From Candidatus Poribacteria bacterium (GTDB taxonomy: Bacteria; Poribacteria; WGA-4E; WGA-3G): 64,000 nt of DNA. The notes below the pieces were generated by a model. That model did not search any database and was not told where the DNA came from. It worked only from the letters and a program-made list of their open reading frames with translations. The stretch spans positions 384,001-448,000 of the forward strand of contig OZ242029.1 in assembly GCA_965205015.1 (NCBI GenBank), written 5' to 3'. Below are positions 3,779 through 63,565 of this stretch, in pieces. Made by a program: the position numbers and the translations under genes. The number at the start of each line of letters is the position of its first letter. Position 1 is the stretch's first letter.

Positions 3779-5347
3779 ATGAAAACCACAGTGATGTTGA
3801 GTCTAATGCTCTTGATCGTTACAGAATTTTTGCTTATACCGGACACCGCCGCCGACTATACAGCCGAGACGCAATGGCGTTTACCCGAAGGTGCGAAAGC
3901 CCGTCTCGGTAAAGGGAGTATACAAGAAATAAAGCTTTCTCCTGATAGGACTCGGCTTGCGGTCGCGAGTAGTATCGGTATTTGGCTCTATGATGCGCTG
4001 ACCGGCGAAGTACTTGACCTGCTCACAGGGCATACAGGGAAGGTTTGGAGCGTCAGCTTTAGTCCCGACGGGCAGACGCTTGCGAGTGGAAGTTCTGACC
4101 GCACGGTTCGTCTATGGGATGTAAACACAGGCGAACATCTTCGCACCCTCACGGGGCATGAGACGTGGGTCAGGATGGTCATTTTTACTCGGGAGGGTGA
4201 GATGCTTGCGAGCGGGAATTCGGAGGGCACGGTTCGTCTATGGGATGTGAACACAGGTGAACACCTCCAAACCTTCACGGGGAATATAGGGGATATCGAG
4301 GTCATGTCTTTTAATTGGGAGGGTGAGATACTTGCGAGTGGGAGTTCGGAGGGCACGGTTCGTCTACGGGATGCGACTACAGACGAACACCTCTGCACGC
4401 TAACGGGGCATACGCTTTTTGTCAATAGCGTATCCTTCAGTCCGGATGGGCAGCTGCTCGCAAGCGGGAGTACGGGCGACGGGATTCGCCTATGGGATGT
4501 GACCACAGGTGAACACTTTCGCACCCTCCAGGGACATATCGGGCCGGTCTATAGCGTCAGTTTTAGTCCGGATGGACAGAAACTTGCCAGTGGCGGCGGA
4601 GACGGCGCGGTTCGTCTCTGGGATGTGAAGACGGGTAAACATCTTCGTGCGCTCATAGCGCGTCCGGGGGGTGTTGGCACTCCCGTAGAGTGGCCGCGGT
4701 ATGTTCAGAGTGTCAGTTTTAGTCCGGAGGGTCAAACGCTTGCCAGTGGGGCGGAGGAAAACATTTATCTATGGGATGCGACCACAGGTGACCCGCTCCG
4801 TATTCTCATAGGGCATACGGGAGCTGTTGAGAGTGTCAGTTTTAGTCCGGATGGGCAGCTGCTCGCAAGCGCGGGTGGGTATGACGACGGGTCGGTTCGT
4901 CTCTGGGATGTGAACACAGGCAAACACCTTCACACCCTCACAGCGAATTTCGGGAACAACTACAGTGTCAGTTTTAGTCCGGAGGGTCAGACGCTTGCCA
5001 GCGGTAATCTGGGGGATGCCGATGTGGTTCGTCTCTGGGATGTGAACACAGGCAAACACATCCGCACACTCAAAGCGCGTATGCAGAGTGTTGATACGCT
5101 CTTCATGGGACCCCAGGTTATCTATAGTGTCAGTTTTAGTCCGGATGACCGGACGCTCGTCGGTGGGCATTCAGAAGGAACCATTTGGTTCTGGAATGTG
5201 AAGACGGGCAAACACCTTCACACCCTCACAGGGCATACGGGGGATGTTCAGAGTGTCAGTTTTAGTCCGGATGGAGGGACGCTCGCGAGTGGAAGTGAAG
5301 ATGGCACAATACTTCTGTGGAAACTGGCACCTTTAACACCGCAATAA
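3779..5347 (+). CDS. Secreted WD40-repeat protein
   Basis: Signal peptide, then about 10 repeats of GH..V.SVSFSPDG..LASGS.D..VRLWD. Confidence 0.92.
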   Translation: MKTTVMLSLMLLIVTEFLLIPDTAADYTAETQWRLPEGAKARLGKGSIQEIKLSPDRTRLAVASSIGIWLYDALTGEVLDLLTGHTGKVWSVSFSPDGQTLASGSSDRTVRLWDVNTGEHLRTLTGHETWVRMVIFTREGEMLASGNSEGTVRLWDVNTGEHLQTFTGNIGDIEVMSFNWEGEILASGSSEGTVRLRDATTDEHLCTLTGHTLFVNSVSFSPDGQLLASGSTGDGIRLWDVTTGEHFRTLQGHIGPVYSVSFSPDGQKLASGGGDGAVRLWDVKTGKHLRALIARPGGVGTPVEWPRYVQSVSFSPEGQTLASGAEENIYLWDATTGDPLRILIGHTGAVESVSFSPDGQLLASAGGYDDGSVRLWDVNTGKHLHTLTANFGNNYSVSFSPEGQTLASGNLGDADVVRLWDVNTGKHIRTLKARMQSVDTLFMGPQVIYSVSFSPDDRTLVGGHSEGTIWFWNVKTGKHLHTLTGHTGDVQSVSFSPDGGTLASGSEDGTILLWKLAPLTPQ

Positions 5348-59245: not shown

Positions 59246-60544
59246 ATGAACCAACTCGTCTCTATCGGAACCAGCCACCACGTCGCGCCCATTGAATTCA
59301 GAGAAAGGTTGGCGTTTTCCGAAGCACAACTCATTGAATCCCATCAGCACCTGCGTGAATCCGATCAGGTCCAAGAGGCGGTGATCCTCTCCACCTGTAA
59401 TCGAGTAGAGGTCTATGCAGTCCTAAATTCAGTGCGGACTGCCGAAGCCGCCGCCAAGGTGTTGGCTGAATTTCTCTCCCGATGCCATCGGATTGATATG
59501 GCATCACTGAAGAAATGGACGTACCTCCACCATAACTTGGAGACGATCCAGCATCTCTTCAGAGTGACATCCAGTCTCGATTCCATGGTCGTCGGCGAGT
59601 CCCAAATACTCGGTCAAGTCAAAGATGGCTACGACGCCTCACGTTCAGCGGGTAGCACAGGGACTATTCTCAATCGTCTTTTCACCAAAGCCTTCAGCGT
59701 TGGTAAACGCATCCGATCCGAAACGACAATCACCACCGGTGCCGTCTCTATTAGTTACGCCGCCGTTGAACTCGCCAAAAAGATTTTCAATACACTCGAA
59801 GGCAAAACCGTCGCGATTATCGGGGCGGGAGAGATGAGCGAACTCACGGCAAAGCACCTCGTTGCAAACGGGGTCTCCAACGTGATTGTCGCAAATCGCA
59901 CATACGAACGGGCAGTCAAAATCGCAGAGAAGTTTAAGGGAACCCCTCTCACCTACGATAGCGATCTCAATTTCCTCATTGATGCCGATATTGTCATTAG
60001 TTCCACCAACGCTCCCGATTATCTCATCAAGCGACAGCCGCTTGCCGACATCATGCGGAAACGGAAACACCGATACATGTTCCTCATTGACATCGCTGTG
60101 CCACGCGACATTGCGCCGGATGTGAACAAACTCGACGCAGCGTTCCTTTACAATATCGATGATCTGGAAACCGTTGTCGCTTCTAACCTCAAAGACCGGC
60201 AACAGGAAGCAGTCCTCGCTGAACAGATCGTCTCTGAAGAGGCGAAACGGTTCTACGACCAATTGCAAATCTTTCAAGTCAATCCTACGATTAAAGCATT
60301 GCACCAGCAGTTTCGACAGATAGCCGACACCGAATTGCAAGCGTGTTTCTACAAAACATCACTCTCCGACCAGCAGGAGGAAGCCATCGCCTCCATGACG
60401 CAGGCAATCGTCAAGAAACTGCTCCATCATCCGATGCAGAACCTCCGAGGGGCTGTTAACGACGGCGATGCCGATCATGGGCAATATGTTCAGTCCCTAC
60501 AGGAATTGTTCGCCTTGGATGTTAATGATGAAAAGCCAGAATAG
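59246..60544 (+). CDS. hemA: Glutamyl-tRNA reductase
   Basis: LSTCNRVE, SLDSMVVGESQILGQ, IGAGEM, DIAVPRD. Confidence 0.97.
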   Translation: MNQLVSIGTSHHVAPIEFRERLAFSEAQLIESHQHLRESDQVQEAVILSTCNRVEVYAVLNSVRTAEAAAKVLAEFLSRCHRIDMASLKKWTYLHHNLETIQHLFRVTSSLDSMVVGESQILGQVKDGYDASRSAGSTGTILNRLFTKAFSVGKRIRSETTITTGAVSISYAAVELAKKIFNTLEGKTVAIIGAGEMSELTAKHLVANGVSNVIVANRTYERAVKIAEKFKGTPLTYDSDLNFLIDADIVISSTNAPDYLIKRQPLADIMRKRKHRYMFLIDIAVPRDIAPDVNKLDAAFLYNIDDLETVVASNLKDRQQEAVLAEQIVSEEAKRFYDQLQIFQVNPTIKALHQQFRQIADTELQACFYKTSLSDQQEEAIASMTQAIVKKLLHHPMQNLRGAVNDGDADHGQYVQSLQELFALDVNDEKPE

Positions 60545-60550
60545 CAATCA

Positions 60551-61603
60551 ATGGTCAGTAAAATGAAAATTAGAAGCGAAAACAAAGCCCGCAACAACGG
60601 CGCGGGCGACTCGTCGGGAAGGCACGTCAAACATGAAACCCACTCAATTGCTCCGCAAGGGAAAATTAAAAAACTTGTAATTGGTACACGCGGCAGTCAA
60701 CTTGCCCTTTGGCAGTCACAATTCGTCAAAAATCAATTGGAACGCCATTTCCCTACCTTGGAAATCTCCCTGAAGACCATCAAAACCACCGGCGATACAA
60801 TCCAAAACCGCTCGTTAGTTGGACTCGGCAAAGGTGTTTTCACCAAAGAGATAGAAAATGCCCTCTTAACCGGCGGCATCGACCTCGCTGTCCACAGTTT
60901 GAAAGACCTCCCGACAGAATTGCCGGAGGGGCTTTGCATTGCCGCCATTCCGACGCGAGAAGACCCACGCGATGTCCTCGTCACAGATACAGGACTCCCT
61001 TTAGAAGACTTGTCGGAAGGGGCGAAGATCGGCACCACAAGTCCACGCCGAAAGGCGCAGCTCCTCTATATCCGCCCAGATCTGCGAGTCGTTGACGTGC
61101 GAGGCAACATCGATACACGGTTGCGCAAACTTCACGAGACCGACCTCGACGGAATCATCCTCGCCGCCGCGGGCATCAAACGCCTCCTCGAACCAGAAAT
61201 TATCACACAATATTTTGACACAGAACAGATGGTCCCGGCAGTCGGGCAGGGCGCGCTCGCGATTGAAATACGGGAAGGTGACGATAGGGTTGAACAGCTG
61301 CTTCTGCCGCTGAACGACCCCGCAGCAACGGTAGAAATCACAGCGGAAAGGACTGTATTGGAAAGCCTCGGCGGCGGATGCCAAGTGCCGATTGGCGCGC
61401 ATGCGAAACATGTCAACGGTGAACTCTCGCTCATCGGCGCGGTTTGTCATCCAGACGGCACGCGACGCATTGTGGCGCGCACCACGGGAACACCAGATAC
61501 AGCACAGCATTTGGGCGAAGGTGTTGCCGAAAAACTTCGGAACAGTGGCGCAACAGAATTGTTGAAGGAACAGGAGAACGATCAGTCAGTGACCCAAACC
61601 TAA
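60551..61603 (+). CDS. hemC: Hydroxymethylbilane synthase with repeat-derived N-terminal insertion
   Basis: IGTRGSQLALWQ, GKGVFTKE, AVHSLKD, RGNIDTRL, GGCQVP. Confidence 0.97.
   Translation: MVSKMKIRSENKARNNGAGDSSGRHVKHETHSIAPQGKIKKLVIGTRGSQLALWQSQFVKNQLERHFPTLEISLKTIKTTGDTIQNRSLVGLGKGVFTKEIENALLTGGIDLAVHSLKDLPTELPEGLCIAAIPTREDPRDVLVTDTGLPLEDLSEGAKIGTTSPRRKAQLLYIRPDLRVVDVRGNIDTRLRKLHETDLDGIILAAAGIKRLLEPEIITQYFDTEQMVPAVGQGALAIEIREGDDRVEQLLLPLNDPAATVEITAERTVLESLGGGCQVPIGAHAKHVNGELSLIGAVCHPDGTRRIVARTTGTPDTAQHLGEGVAEKLRNSGATELLKEQENDQSVTQT
60565..60668 (+). repeat. Gene-start repeat inserted in frame in hemC
   Basis: GAAAATTA direct repeats at 60565 and 60661, 96 nt apart; removing the insert gives MKIKKLVIGTRGS. 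Confidence 0.8.
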
Positions 61604-62065
61604 AGGATTGGGCTTGTCCACTACGCCAACCAAGGCTATAGAGTGGGCAAGGGTAACTCATTGACTACCGTAAAATATCGCAGTTTCTGGAGCGTGGTAG
61701 CTCCAAACAATGGTTAGAGAACGCTATACCGAACTGGTAGTAGGTATAGTTAAGGGTGCTCCCCAAGCCTTAACCCTCTTGGAAACTGTGATCGGGATGG
61801 GGCAACATATACCCGCTTTTGCGGAGAGCCGAAAGGTCATTACCTGTTTTCTTGATAGCACCGGGTCAGGTCTCAGTAGTAAGTGGTGACAGCCTTGTGA
61901 ACCGAAGCAGCCCACTGGAAAGAATCGCCTACTGGATTGTGGCGAAAAAACAACCAGCACTTTTTCTATCGGTTTCTTTTTTTTAACCTGGACCTCTGGT
62001 CCTTTCCAAGAGGGCGGTGTTTCCTCCCAAGCCTAAAAGACTTGGGTCTCCACACCGTAATATAG
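61585..62065 (+). mobile_element. Non-autonomous IS200/IS605-family element with HEARO/omegaRNA-like RNA and no IscB ORF
   Basis: Starts GTCA with hairpin CCCAAACC-TAAA-GGATTGGG; ends with a related hairpin CCCAAGCC-TAAA-AGACTTGGG inside CGGTGT..ACACCG; followed by ATGA; empty site restores the hemC/cobA overlap. Confidence 0.75.
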
Positions 62066-63565
62066 ATGAACAAACCGAGCACAGGTACCGTTTACATCGT
62101 AGGTGCTGGTCCCGGCGACAGAAAACTCATCACGCTTAAAGGTGTGGAGTGTCTGCAGCGCGCCGATGTCGTCATTTATGACCTGTTGCTCAACGACAGC
62201 CTGTTGGAACACTGCCCCGCGCACACCGAAAAAATCCAAGCCCCCGACCCGCGACTCCGAACGACCCGCCAAGATGAACTCAACCACTTGCTGATTGAAC
62301 ACGCCAAAGCCGGGAAAACCGTTGTTCGCCTGAAAGGCGGCGATCCCTATATCTTCGGACGCGGCGGCGAAGAAGCCGTTGCGCTCACGGAAGCCGGTAT
62401 CCCATTCGAAGTTGTTCCGGGTATCACATCGGCGATTGCCGCATCAGCGTATGCAGGCATTCCAGTTACACATCGCGACTATGCCTCATCGGTCGCTTTT
62501 GTGACAGGGCATTCCGCGGCATTACATCCAGATTCAAACATTAATTGGTCACACCTCGCCACAGCCGTTGATACGCTCGTTGTCTACATGGGGGTCGCAC
62601 ACCTTCGCCAGATTGTGGAGCGGCTAACAGCACACGGTAGAGATCCGCAAACTCCTGTCAGTTTAGTCCGTCTCGGAACGACACCGCAACAGCATGTCGT
62701 CCAAGGCACCCTCACCGATATTGTGCAAAAAGTGGAAGCAGTGCAACTCAAAAGTCCAGCGGTTATCGTTGTGGGAGAGGTAAACCGGCTACGTGAGCAC
62801 CTCCGATGGTTTGATACCAAACCCCTCTTCGGAAAGCGGATCCTTGTCACGCGCGCCCGAGCACAGGCAAGCGAATTCGCAGACCTGTTGGAAGCAAACG
62901 GCGCAGAAGTCATTCAATTCCCCACGATACAGATTCAACCGATTGCGGGTGTAGACATACCCCCTCCCAACACATACGATTGGGTCATCTTTACGAGCGT
63001 CAACGCCGTTGAAATTCTCTATGAACGTCTACGAGAAAGCGGAAAGGATGCCCGAGCGTTCGGTGGGAGCCGTATCTGCGCAGTCGGCGCGAAAACGGTG
63101 GAAGCTTTAAACCGCATCGGTATCCATCCCGATTTCGTGCCTTCTCACGCCCGCGGAAGTGCTATTGCCTCTGAAATGACAGACGTGAACGGAAAGAAAA
63201 TCCTCCTACCACGTGCGAAAATTGCCACTGCCGATCTGCCCAACGGTTTGCGCGAGAAGGGGGCACAGGTCGATGATGTGCCACTCTACGATACCCTCAA
63301 AGTGGCAAACGAAAACAGCGATGAAATCGAAGCAGACCTTCTGAACGGTAGCATCGACTTCGTCACGTTCACCAGTTCCTCAACGGTTACGAATTTCTTG
63401 GAGATGTTCCGCGCACACGCACCCATGGACTTACTCGCGAATGTCAAGGTCGCCGTGATCGGACCCACAACACAGAAAACGGCACTGGCGCGTGATATAC
63501 GGGTTGATGTGGTTGCGAAGGAGGCATCCGTCGAGAGTCTTGTGGAAGCAATCATTGAGGTATGA
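62066..63565 (+). CDS. cobA: Uroporphyrinogen-III C-methyltransferase / uroporphyrinogen-III synthase fusion
   Basis: VGAGPGD, RLKGGDP..FGRGGEE, then a HemD domain (LFGKRILVTR, FTSVNAV, FTSSSTV). Confidence 0.95.
   Translation: MNKPSTGTVYIVGAGPGDRKLITLKGVECLQRADVVIYDLLLNDSLLEHCPAHTEKIQAPDPRLRTTRQDELNHLLIEHAKAGKTVVRLKGGDPYIFGRGGEEAVALTEAGIPFEVVPGITSAIAASAYAGIPVTHRDYASSVAFVTGHSAALHPDSNINWSHLATAVDTLVVYMGVAHLRQIVERLTAHGRDPQTPVSLVRLGTTPQQHVVQGTLTDIVQKVEAVQLKSPAVIVVGEVNRLREHLRWFDTKPLFGKRILVTRARAQASEFADLLEANGAEVIQFPTIQIQPIAGVDIPPPNTYDWVIFTSVNAVEILYERLRESGKDARAFGGSRICAVGAKTVEALNRIGIHPDFVPSHARGSAIASEMTDVNGKKILLPRAKIATADLPNGLREKGAQVDDVPLYDTLKVANENSDEIEADLLNGSIDFVTFTSSSTVTNFLEMFRAHAPMDLLANVKVAVIGPTTQKTALARDIRVDVVAKEASVESLVEAIIEV

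What the first reader, a model, noticed from the sequence alone, without database searches (positions are those of the whole stretch)
61585..62065. ORF-less omegaRNA/HEARO-like element inserted exactly into the hemC-cobA ATGA overlap
Seen: the element starts GTCAGTGACCC with a hairpin (61593-61612) and ends with a sister hairpin (62026-62046), followed by ATGA at 62066. Deleting 61585-62065 gives CAGGAGAACGATCA|ATGAAC. That restores hemC ending GAT CAA TGA overlapping the cobA ATG, with AGGAG 9 nt upstream. The interior is hairpin-dense (CTTGTCCACT/AGTGGGCAAG, TGGAGC/GCTCCA, CTATACC/GGTATAG, TTAAGG/CCTTAA) and includes GGGTGCTCCCCAAGCC, and it has no long ORF. Established: IscB-type IS200/IS605 elements have subterminal hairpins, a 5' omegaRNA guided by the flanking sequence, and a 3' TAM; ATGA is a known TAM. 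Inference: a stand-alone guide RNA whose guide is the hemC 3' end, which could direct an IscB acting in trans against the empty allele.
Basis: partly seen in the sequence, partly recalled or inferred. Interest (0 to 1): 0.8.

Follow-up and report, generated by a model that had tools for sequence, protein, structure and literature searches.

The report
Gene-less guide-RNA transposon at cobA start
A 481-base mobile element with no gene of its own, carrying only a folded guide RNA of the kind used by Cas9's small transposon ancestors, sits exactly between two haem-pathway genes of a sponge symbiont, and a nearly identical strain still has the empty site.

Summary
Window 61585-62065 is a 481-nt ORF-less insertion between hemC and cobA-hemD of a Poribacteria-like genome. 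A contig in another sponge metagenome joins 61584 directly to 62066, which is the empty allele. Relatives also have the stop/start overlap.

It belongs to a multi-copy ORF-less family found in 35 of 175 Poribacteria genomes. Its first ~255 nt are homologous to the RNA region directly upstream of IsrB genes in relatives. IsrB is the HNH-less, nickase form of IscB. The Rfam HEARO match is weak, 29.8 bits against a threshold of 83. Copies whose end was resolved are followed by ATGA, IsrB's known NTGA motif.

The family's secondary structure covaries strongly. G-U outnumbers A-C on the + strand, which points to selection on an RNA.

- A conserved, pseudoknotted ~120-nt 3' RNA domain stands where the nuclease gene would be.
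- In 45 of 60 copies the flanking ATG opens an ORF of 80 aa or more.
- A Shine-Dalgarno-like motif sits in front of the terminal hairpin.

Guidance of IsrB in trans is inferred, not shown.

The parts
60551..61603 (+). hemC (porphobilinogen deaminase). Its natural stop is lost, and it now runs 5 codons (SVTQT) plus TAA into the element.
   Evidence: PF01379 E = 3.2e-82, PF03900; empty allele
61565..61584 (+). Flank that would serve as the guide of the omegaRNA: the last 20 nt of hemC, including the AGGAG that was cobA's Shine-Dalgarno.
   Evidence: Position directly 5' of the scaffold start. The guide role is inferred from IscB/IsrB biology (PMC9581776).
61585..62065 (+). The whole 481-nt ORF-less IS200/IS605-type (ISC1/PATE-like) element.
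   Evidence: Precise empty allele in run X5; family copies
61585..61839 (+). IsrB-type omegaRNA scaffold (element 1-255). It has an outer stem 1-8/74-81, SL1, SL2, a long stem 61677-61687/61782-61792, and further hairpins.
   Evidence: HEARO hit 61585-61727. Pieces 1-33, 64-128 and 170-231 lie directly upstream of IsrB ORFs in relatives. Covariation is shown.
61593..61612 (+). Subterminal hairpin at the omegaRNA end. In TnpA-centred terms this is the transposon's right end. It doubles as SL1 of the RNA.
   Evidence: An identical 20-mer sits at both ends of a tnpA+tnpB element in a relative.
61629..61698 (+). Loop-loop pseudoknot: ACCA 61629-61632 pairs with TGGT 61695-61698. Most copies have GCCA/TGGC here.
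   Evidence: 97.5% paired; 4 of 50 sequences, the window among them, carry G-C changed to A-U on both sides
61723..61750 (+). Extra hairpin (element 139-166), present in the ORF-less family and absent from IsrB-linked omegaRNAs.
   Evidence: query positions 129-174 skipped in IsrB loci; helix 8: 8 of 8 pairs with compensatory changes
61840..61959 (+). Conserved 3' RNA domain (element 256-375) in place of the nuclease gene. It has long-range helices 61849-61853/61920-61924 and 61863-61866/61910-61913 and a hairpin 61879-61898. An H-type pseudoknot is formed by CGCC 61926-61929 with GGCG 61941-61944 and by hairpin 61932-61957.
   Evidence: 35 of 175 genomes; helices 13, 14, 16-19; (73% mean identity, G-U:A-C = 135:58); no Rfam match
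61960..62009 (+). Variable, A/T-rich linker.
   Evidence: 32% mean pairwise identity; indels
62010..62065 (+). Other transposon end. GAGG 62010-62013 comes first, then an outer stem 62015-62020/62052-62057 and an inner hairpin 62026-62046, then an 8-nt tail before the ATG.
   Evidence: (helices 20, 21)
62066..62069 (+). ATGA. It is the insertion target and TAM, the cobA start codon, and in the empty allele also holds the hemC stop codon.
   Evidence: 61 family copies are followed by ATGA and one by ATGG.
62066..63565 (+). cobA-hemD fusion (uroporphyrinogen-III methyltransferase/synthase).
   Evidence: 91% identical to Candidatus Poribacteria MAG proteins

Best explanation
Window 61585-62065 is a non-autonomous, gene-less transposon of the IS200/IS605 superfamily, of the ISC1 or 'PATE' type.

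Shown:
- It entered N|ATGA without target duplication, exactly where the hemC stop overlapped the cobA start.
- The insertion is polymorphic among near-identical strains.
- The element belongs to a multi-copy Poribacteria family.
- Its 5' 255 nt are a homologue of the omegaRNA that precedes IsrB genes in relatives.
- Its structure has been kept by compensatory changes within the ORF-less lineage.

Inferred:
- A Y1 TnpA encoded elsewhere moves it, as single-stranded DNA, by recognising the two subterminal hairpins.
- Read-through transcription from hemC yields an RNA whose 5' guide is the hemC 3' end.
- An IsrB encoded elsewhere loads this RNA and nicks the empty allele (guide match followed by ATGA). 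This favours repair from an occupied copy and so keeps the element in place.
- The occupied allele escapes, because GTCA stands in the TAM position.
- The GAGG/GGAG in front of the terminal hairpin, brought to within 7-10 nt of the ATG when the hairpin folds, replaces the displaced Shine-Dalgarno so that cobA is still translated.

The role of the conserved 3' pseudoknotted domain is open. My guess is that it stabilises or processes the free-standing RNA.
For: Insertion and mobility:
- Empty allele in run X5 and empty sites in L002, L008, L013 and L014.
- A copy with 0 substitutions and 1 indel in a different flank in run X4, and loose ends at 61585 and 62071 in run X1.
- Matches in 5 of 5 relatives. 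The 3' domain is found in 35 of 175 genomes.
- 61 copies are followed by ATGA and 1 by ATGG.

omegaRNA identity:
- HEARO hits start at the first base of the window copy and of 5 other copies.
- Element pieces 1-33, 64-128 and 170-231 lie directly upstream of RRXRR ORFs.
- Those ORFs align colinearly with DtIsrB, E = 3.9e-37.

RNA-level selection:
- 88.5% of cells are paired, against 77.4% in shuffles and 38-45% when partners are slid.
- 75 of 112 pairs carry changes on both sides, against 49.4 in shuffles (0 of 500 shuffles reach the observed value).
- G-U:A-C is 336:104 in the omegaRNA part and 135:58 in the 3' domain, but 6:16 and 16:19 in the two terminal hairpins.
- The window copy departs at 6 of 187 conserved columns, which ranks it 32nd of 51.

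Partners:
- TnpA is present in 5 of 5 relatives.
- A tnpA+tnpB element carries the identical 20-nt hairpin.
- 31 of 35 genomes with the 3' domain have an RRXRR protein, against 62 of 140 without it.

Literature (passages seen):
- NTGA TAM, ~300-nt omegaRNA and stand-alone omegaRNAs: PMC9581776.
- N|ATGA target and 5'-GT termini: PMC4810608.
- PATEs encoding omegaRNAs that act in trans: 10.1101/2023.03.14.532601.

Shine-Dalgarno: 47 of 51 copies have GGAG/GAGG/AGGA just before the end stem, and the tail is 9 nt in 39 of 51.
Against: - No RNA data exist for this locus, so transcription, processing and guide length are unknown.
- No IsrB or TnpA lies in the 64-kb window (one search covers IsrB only), and the window's own genome could not be searched.
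- The Rfam score is far below the family threshold (29.8 against 83). IsrB-linked copies L119 and L122 gave no HEARO hit at E <= 1.
- IsrB is a nickase. The 2026 review passages I saw list restorative homing as shown for TnpB and IscB, not for IsrB.
- 4 of 35 genomes with the family show no RRXRR match (G080, G087, G126, G168). They may be incomplete.
- The structure was derived from these same sequences, which inflates the comparison with slid controls. Copies are related, so shuffle counts are not probabilities.
- The GGAG before the end stem is also present in 13 of 14 IsrB-bearing elements, where it overlaps the end of the ORF. It is therefore ancestral and may be kept for another reason.
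- The regular expression used to find element ends contained ATGA, with up to 6 errors allowed. This favours that reading, although the ends are also plain by eye.
Confidence: 0.7

Rival explanations
1. A passive hitch-hiker. The element is mobilised by TnpA through its hairpins only, and its RNA features are inherited from an IsrB-bearing ancestor without present function.
For: It has no ORF and there are no expression data. ORF-less deletion derivatives do arise: L096 keeps the omegaRNA, a tail of the IsrB coding region and the end. 4 of 35 genomes with the family lack an RRXRR match.
Against: All 51 sequences in alignment A2 are ORF-less, yet 75 of 112 pairs show compensatory changes. The bias of G-U over A-C is specific to the + strand and is absent from the DNA hairpins. 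The 3' domain is better conserved (73%) than the linker (32%). The window copy keeps the loop-loop pseudoknot through a double change.
Confidence: 0.13
2. A co-opted regulator. The RNA, with or without IsrB, controls the gene it sits in front of, acting as a 5' leader or as an RNA-guided repressor. It would not serve transposon retention.
For: In 45 of 60 copies the flanking ATG opens an ORF of 80 aa or more, against 131 of 658 control ATGA sites. There is a Shine-Dalgarno-like motif and an unexplained conserved 3' domain. The listing shows titles on TnpB relatives domesticated as RNA-guided transcription factors; I saw those titles and abstracts only.
Against: The downstream genes are unrelated to one another. 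The insertion is polymorphic and near-identical copies sit in different flanks, which is the behaviour of an active transposon. The guide matches sequence upstream of the element, not a distant target.
Confidence: 0.1
3. The partner is a full IscB with an HNH domain that cuts both strands, not IsrB.
For: Relatives also hold larger RRXRR proteins with a split domain. One example is L111, a 652-aa open frame preceded by a 68-bit HEARO match. PF14239 does not tell the two apart.
Against: The sequence similarity of the window RNA is to regions upstream of ~340-aa, HNH-less proteins. L111's RNA is not among the blastn matches of the element.
Confidence: 0.07

Closest known systems
IsrB omegaRNA (OMEGA nickase system, e.g. 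DtIsrB; PMC9581776, passages seen)
   Same: A large structured RNA that begins at the transposon end with GUCA. It has a 5' stem enclosing two stem-loops, loop-loop pseudoknots, a guide taken from the flank, and an NTGA TAM (here ATGA). Proteins next to homologous RNAs in relatives align with DtIsrB at E = 3.9e-37.
   Different: No IsrB gene follows it. It has an extra hairpin (element 139-166) and a ~120-nt conserved 3' domain not seen next to IsrB genes. Its Rfam HEARO score is only 29.8 bits.
ISC1/ISC transposons with N|ATGA target (Kapitonov et al. 2016, PMC4810608, passages seen)
   Same: 5'-GT(CA) terminus, subterminal imperfect hairpins, insertion just upstream of ATGA without duplication, ends shared with IS605 tnpA/tnpB elements lying in the opposite orientation, and dependence on a transposase supplied in trans.
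   Different: Those elements encode IscB or IsrB and this one encodes nothing. Its hosts are Poribacteria. 'Start codon' does not occur in that paper's main text.
PATEs and stand-alone omegaRNAs (Meers et al. preprint 10.1101/2023.03.14.532601; statement in PMC9581776)
   Same: Protein-less IS200/IS605 derivatives that keep the ends and a guide RNA, and that need a nuclease from another element.
   Different: Here the gene-less form is a long-lived, diversified lineage with an RNA domain of its own, not just a deletion product. The passages seen concern TnpB PATEs and IscB stand-alone RNAs. I did not see an IsrB case.
IStrons (group I intron plus IS605; preprint 10.1101/2023.11.20.567912, abstract seen; review passage)
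   Same: An IS200/IS605 relative carrying an added RNA function that lowers the cost of sitting inside a host transcription unit.
   Different: No group I intron or any ribozyme family matched. The proposed cost-saving device here is a carried ribosome-binding site, not splicing.

Membership tests
IS200/IS605 superfamily, non-autonomous (ISC1/PATE type) | Subterminal imperfect hairpins at both ends, no terminal inverted repeats | tested here: met
   61593-61612 and 62026-62046. Both hairpins covary across copies (helices 2 and 21).
IS200/IS605 superfamily, non-autonomous (ISC1/PATE type) | Site-specific insertion next to a 4-nt motif, without target-site duplication | tested here: met
   The empty allele joins 61584 to 62066 with no extra or missing base. 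61 copies are flanked by ATGA and 1 by ATGG.
IS200/IS605 superfamily, non-autonomous (ISC1/PATE type) | Several copies with unrelated flanks | tested here: met
   other flanks for near-identical copies in runs X1 and X4
IS200/IS605 superfamily, non-autonomous (ISC1/PATE type) | Mobilised by a Y1 (HUH) TnpA that recognises the hairpins | tested here: inconclusive
   PF01797 is found in 5 of 5 relatives. A tnpA+tnpB element in G003 carries the identical 20-nt hairpin at both ends. There is no assay, and no TnpA is known from the window's own genome.
HEARO / IscB-IsrB omegaRNA (Rfam RF02033) | Score at or above Rfam's gathering threshold (83 bits) | tested here: not met
   29.8 bits, E = 0.001; no match at the gathering threshold anywhere in the window. 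[quoted passage not shown]
HEARO / IscB-IsrB omegaRNA (Rfam RF02033) | Homology to the RNA region directly upstream of IscB/IsrB genes, starting at the transposon end | tested here: met
   blastn places element pieces 1-33, 64-128 and 170-231 just 5' of RRXRR ORFs in L112, L113, L115, L116, L119 and L121-L130.
HEARO / IscB-IsrB omegaRNA (Rfam RF02033) | Conserved secondary structure with pseudoknots, kept by compensatory change | tested here: met
   A second candidate pseudoknot (CCCC/GGGG, helix 10) is 90.5% paired but never covaries, so it says nothing either way.
HEARO / IscB-IsrB omegaRNA (Rfam RF02033) | An IscB/IsrB ORF immediately downstream | tested here: not met
   No ORF and no tblastn match to IsrB bodies. 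The RNA is therefore a stand-alone form.
HEARO / IscB-IsrB omegaRNA (Rfam RF02033) | Target-adjacent motif 3' of the guide match (NTGA for IsrB) | tested here: met
   ATGA follows the guide-equivalent sequence in the empty allele. The NTGA motif is from PMC9581776.
HEARO / IscB-IsrB omegaRNA (Rfam RF02033) | Binds the nuclease and guides DNA nicking or cleavage | not testable with these tools
   Needs biochemistry.
IStron / self-splicing intron or known ribozyme | Match to a group I/II intron or self-cleaving ribozyme model | tested here: not met
   Nothing at E <= 10 in 60500-63000 and nothing at E <= 1 in nine family loci other than HEARO.

The most novel reading that the evidence does not exclude
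The ORF-less lineage is not debris but a specialised 'RNA-only' transposon that lives off IsrB and TnpA made by other elements.

- It lands on the ATG-A of start codons, including ATGA stop/start overlaps inside operons.
- It lets the host gene's own promoter transcribe its guide RNA.
- It brings a Shine-Dalgarno that its terminal TnpA hairpin folds into register with the ATG, so the host gene stays expressed.
- It has evolved a new pseudoknotted RNA domain in place of the nuclease gene, perhaps to stabilise or process the free RNA, or to compete for IsrB.
Probability: 0.35. Interest if true: 0.75.

Novelty: new variant of a known kind. Interest (0 to 1): 0.58.

Why it matters
Guide-RNA transposons are the ancestors of Cas9 and Cas12. 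How their RNA and protein parts can separate, and what it costs the host, is an active question.

This locus offers a natural, datable case. An occupied and an empty allele exist in near-identical strains. The guide and TAM can be read directly from the sequence. The element sits inside an essential tetrapyrrole operon.

The family also shows that the gene-less form can persist and diversify, being found in 35 of 175 Poribacteria genomes. It keeps its RNA fold and has gained a domain of unknown role. If the carried ribosome-binding site and the start-codon niche hold up, they describe a second way, besides IStron splicing, for IS200/IS605 elements to be harmless inside transcription units.

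The compact IsrB proteins (~340 aa) and their free-standing RNAs from an uncultivated sponge symbiont may also interest people who develop nickase tools.

Tried and rejected
**Searches that gave nothing or could not run**
- The window's own genome is not held. Copy number, IsrB and TnpA of this strain therefore stay unknown.
- A phage collection blastn gave no match.
- The consensus scan found 0 promoter-like sites and only weak terminator-like sites in 61300-62300, so I make no claim about promoters or terminators.
- No Rfam family matched the 3' domain.
- No RNA holder was listed among the sequencing runs, so expression is untested.

**Ideas rejected**
- Element positions 232-412 as a remnant of the nuclease gene. 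tblastn with IsrB frames hit only stretches where the frames overlap the shared RNA region, at E >= 2.75e-4, and never IsrB bodies. blastn of the element found no 232-412 match in any IsrB locus.
- A lower stem for the hairpin at 61869-61903 (helix 15) is only 54.5% paired.
- Helix ACCTG/CAGGT (61842-61846/61867-61871) is 97.6% paired but has one compensatory case only and clashes with better-supported helices. I leave it open.
- L186 looked like a second hit at the cobA start because it has the same first 12 bases. Its downstream protein is unrelated, 51 of 239 identical.
- The GGAG in front of the end stem is not special to the ORF-less family, because 13 of 14 IsrB-bearing ends have it too.

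**Rows left out of alignments A1 and A2**
- L137 and L149 (5' part missing).
- L146, L158, L189 and L198 (nested insertions; 567-607 nt).
- L091, L143, L153, L182, L195, L200, L204-L206 and L208 (an end not resolved, or cut by a contig end).
- L141 and L147 (the same places as L086 and L081).

**Caveats on counts**
- Some copies are orthologous insertions in different genomes, for example L146/L158/L189 and L133/L174. Counts are therefore not counts of independent events.
- The cross-tabulation was done by hand.

**Literature limits**
- The original HEARO paper is not held. What I say of it rests on later papers' passages.
- Two searches listed no paper on start-codon targeting or a carried Shine-Dalgarno in IS200/IS605 elements. 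That is not proof that none exists.
Those of PMC4810608 and of the Meers preprint may list gene-less omegaRNA elements and target contexts that bear on novelty.
- The idea that a hairpin can bridge a Shine-Dalgarno and a start codon (phage T4 gene 38) is recalled from memory and comes from no call.
Full report
**1.

The stretch 61585-62065 lies between a porphobilinogen deaminase gene (hemC, 60551-) and a fused uroporphyrinogen methyltransferase/synthase gene (cobA-hemD, 62066-63565).
- It begins GTCAGTGACCC.
- It carries a hairpin at 61593-61612 and an 80%-alike sister hairpin at 62026-62046.
- It is followed by ATGA.
- It holds no ORF above 59 aa on + or 78 aa on -.
- It folds better than all 100 shuffles, z = -3.06.

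The CobA-HemD protein is 91% identical to those of Candidatus Poribacteria MAGs, so the window comes from a sponge-symbiont relative. Its own genome is not held.

**2. It is an insertion, and a recent one**

In 80 related loci the hemC end mostly abuts the cobA start. L002, L008, L013 and L014 read ...AAATGAAC..., with the hemC TGA overlapping the cobA ATG.

Laying public contigs on 61385-62265 gave the decisive result.
- In run X5, a sponge metagenome, a 2049-nt contig joins 61584 straight to 62066.
- In run X4 a 739-nt contig holds the element with 0 substitutions and 1 indel, but with a different 5' flank.
- In run X1 other contigs break off at 61585 and 62071 into unrelated sequence.

The element is therefore polymorphic among near-identical strains and present in several places. 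These are contigs, so I draw no copy numbers from depth.

With the element in place, HemC gains five residues (SVTQT) and stops inside the first hairpin. The AGGAG that preceded the cobA ATG is moved 481 nt away.

**3. Family**

The element matches all 5 of 5 relatives' genomes searched, including near full-length ORF-less copies. Its positions 232-412 alone match 35 of 175 Poribacteria genomes, with at most 4 candidates scored per genome.

Every copy whose two ends I could resolve is 424-607 nt long and has no nuclease gene.
- 28 of 33 loci resolved.
- 27 of 30 resolved.
- 3 of 7 resolved.

All 58 of these, plus the window, L081 and L143 read by eye, are followed by ATGA. L091 has ATGG. The pattern used to find the ends contained ATGA with up to 6 errors allowed, which leans that way, but the ends are plain in the raw printouts. 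The 5' flanks are unrelated to one another.

**4. What the 5' half is**

Rfam's HEARO model matches 61585-61727, starting at the first base, at 29.8 bits and E = 0.001. That is far below the 83-bit threshold. Five other copies give similar weak hits that also start at their first base.

Stronger evidence comes from relatives.
- PF14239 (RRXRR) proteins occur in 4 of 5 genomes.
- Element pieces 1-33, 64-128 and 170-231 lie directly upstream of these ORFs, and piece 430-473 lies directly downstream.
- The proteins are about 340 aa and match RRXRR only.
- They align colinearly with the solved IsrB of 8DMB at E = 3.9e-37, and with IscB structures only over the N-terminal part.

The partner family is therefore IsrB, the HNH-less nickase.

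Passages of PMC9581776 state that IsrB uses a ~300-nt omegaRNA and an NTGA TAM, and that stand-alone omegaRNAs working with IscB are known. PMC4810608 describes ISC elements with 5'-GT termini inserted at N|ATGA, sharing ends with oppositely oriented IS605 elements. The Meers preprint notes that the HEARO region is bounded by the transposon's right end, that PATEs often encode omegaRNAs needing a nuclease in trans, and that RF02033 lacks downstream structure.

**5. Who could move it**

Y1 transposase genes occur in 5 of 5 relatives. In G003, two copies of a tnpA (155 aa) plus tnpB (410 aa; PF07282, PF01385) element carry the 20-mer of the window's first hairpin at both ends, exact at three of the four ends and with one mismatch at the fourth. 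The genes lie on the opposite strand, as the literature describes. The flank there is ATAA rather than ATGA.

**6. The RNA is under selection in the gene-less lineage**

On 51 ORF-less copies (alignment A2; median pairwise identity 70%), a 112-pair structure gave these figures:

| Measure | Observed | Shuffled | Partners slid |
|---|---|---|---|
| Cells paired | 88.5% | 77.4% | 38-45% |
| Pairs with changes on both sides | 75 | 49.4 (0 of 500 shuffles reach the observed value) | 31-41 |

RNAalifold on the first 26 copies had found 52 of 81 pairs with compensatory changes.

G-U pairs outnumber A-C mismatches 336:104 in the omegaRNA part and 135:58 in the 3' domain. In the two terminal hairpins the counts are 6:16 and 16:19. 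This is what one expects if the inside works as a + strand RNA and the ends work as DNA.

A loop-loop pseudoknot is 97.5% paired. It reads GCCA/UGGC in 45 sequences and ACCA/UGGU in four, the window among them.

The window copy departs from 6 of 187 well-conserved columns, ranking 32nd of 51. It is an ordinary, intact member.

Caveats: the structure was drawn from these sequences, the copies are related, and some are orthologous insertions.

**7.

IsrB-linked RNAs lack the hairpin at element 139-166 and everything from 232 to 412. In the gene-less family, positions 256-375 (61840-61959) are the best-conserved segment, at 73% mean identity against 32% for the following linker.

This segment forms covarying helices:
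- two long-range stems, 98.8% and 99.5% paired;
- a variable-stem hairpin with a conserved GUGNNAG-type loop, 5 of 5 pairs compensatory;
- an H-type pseudoknot in which CGCC pairs with the GGCG of a hairpin loop, 97.5% paired with 3 of 4 pairs compensatory.

No Rfam family matches it. It shows no similarity to IsrB coding sequence. In every context examined, including 6 metagenome contigs and 1 contig of the viral collection, it sits in a gene-less element. Its role is unknown.

**8.

In 45 of 60 copies the flanking ATG of ATGA opens an ORF of 80 aa or more (23 of 30, 19 of 27, 3 of 3). Among all ATGA sites of the same loci the figure is 131 of 658 (binomial p = 3.5e-11 for the first 30, not corrected for relatedness).

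Many 5' flanks carry GGAG-like motifs 8-15 nt upstream of the element. The element therefore often lies between a gene's Shine-Dalgarno and its start codon. The window's case, on an operon ATGA stop/start overlap, is one form of this.

IsrB-bearing relatives do the same in 7 of 14 cases.

Either the target motif plus purifying selection leaves mainly such harmless sites, or the elements are adapted to them. In favour of adaptation:
- 47 of 51 copies have GGAG/GAGG/AGGA, preceded by an A-run, directly before the outer stem of the terminal hairpin.
- The stem ends 7-10 nt before the ATG, and at 9 nt in 39 of 51 copies.

Folding of the hairpin would thus place a ribosome-binding motif at normal distance from the ATG. 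The motif is also present in 13 of 14 IsrB-bearing ends, so it is ancestral and this reading remains an inference.

**9. Co-occurrence**

Of the 35 genomes with the 3' domain, 31 have an RRXRR protein. Of the other 140 genomes, 62 do (Fisher p = 1.2e-6). This is uncorrected for phylogeny, and the MAGs may be incomplete.

**10. Mechanism proposed**

Shown: precise N|ATGA insertion, polymorphism, multi-copy family, homology to IsrB-linked omegaRNA, and maintained RNA structure.

Inferred:
- TnpA supplied in trans moves the element.
- hemC read-through transcription supplies an RNA whose guide is the hemC 3' end.
- IsrB supplied in trans nicks the empty allele next to ATGA. The occupied allele shows GTCA in that position, which differs from NTGA at the third base.
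- Repair from an occupied copy restores the element.
- The carried GAGG plus the terminal hairpin keeps cobA translated.

Points against this mechanism are listed with the best explanation. The main ones are the lack of RNA data, the lack of a partner in the window, and the lack of published homing by the nickase IsrB in the passages I saw.

**11. Verdict**

In kind it is known: ISC/IS605 biology, stand-alone omegaRNAs and PATEs. It is new as a variant: an IsrB-type, gene-less lineage in Poribacteria with its own conserved RNA domain and a start-codon niche.

Noticed in passing
L001, L004-L007, L011, L012 around locus position 3850-4000 (hemC-cobA junction of relatives): The same junction is remodelled in other Poribacteria genomes. 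L004, L007, L011 and L012 have a ~140-nt spacer and a different CobA N-terminus. L001 has a further ~315-nt insert with repeated CCCTACGGGGTG motifs. L005 has a 48-nt tandem duplication. None of these matches the window element.
   Followed up: partly
L096:1501-1854 (G003:C1:2377106-): A different kind of gene-less copy: omegaRNA without the extra hairpin, then the last ~80 nt of an IsrB coding region, then the end, followed by ATGA. It looks like a simple internal deletion of an IsrB element.
   Followed up: partly
L166 and L171 (G003:C1:4379988-4383341 and 4791284-4794637): Two copies of a tnpA+tnpB IS605-type element whose end hairpins match the 20-mer of the window's first hairpin (exact at three of the four ends, one mismatch at the fourth). 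They are flanked by ATAA rather than ATGA.
   Followed up: partly
L111 (G003:C1:1472426-1475794): A larger RRXRR protein (652-aa open frame, split domain, probably a true IscB) preceded by a much stronger HEARO match of 68.4 bits. Both IscB and IsrB systems therefore coexist in these genomes.
   Followed up: no
L146, L158, L189 (G154, G168, G171), element linker region: One family copy at an orthologous site in three genomes carries a nested 110-145-nt insertion in its variable linker, giving element lengths of 575-607 nt.
   Followed up: no
L199:555-993, alignment A2 columns 334-356: One copy has an extra G+C-rich palindrome inserted at the foot of the variable hairpin of the 3' domain.
   Followed up: no
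L208 (IMG/VR contig, 45,789 nt): One family copy lies on a contig filed in the viral collection. I did not check whether that contig is really a phage.
   Followed up: no
L086, L180, L183, L191, alignment A2 columns 30-32: Four copies from different sub-lineages share a small insertion (GAAAC in place of GC) between the first hairpin and the second stem-loop.
   Followed up: no
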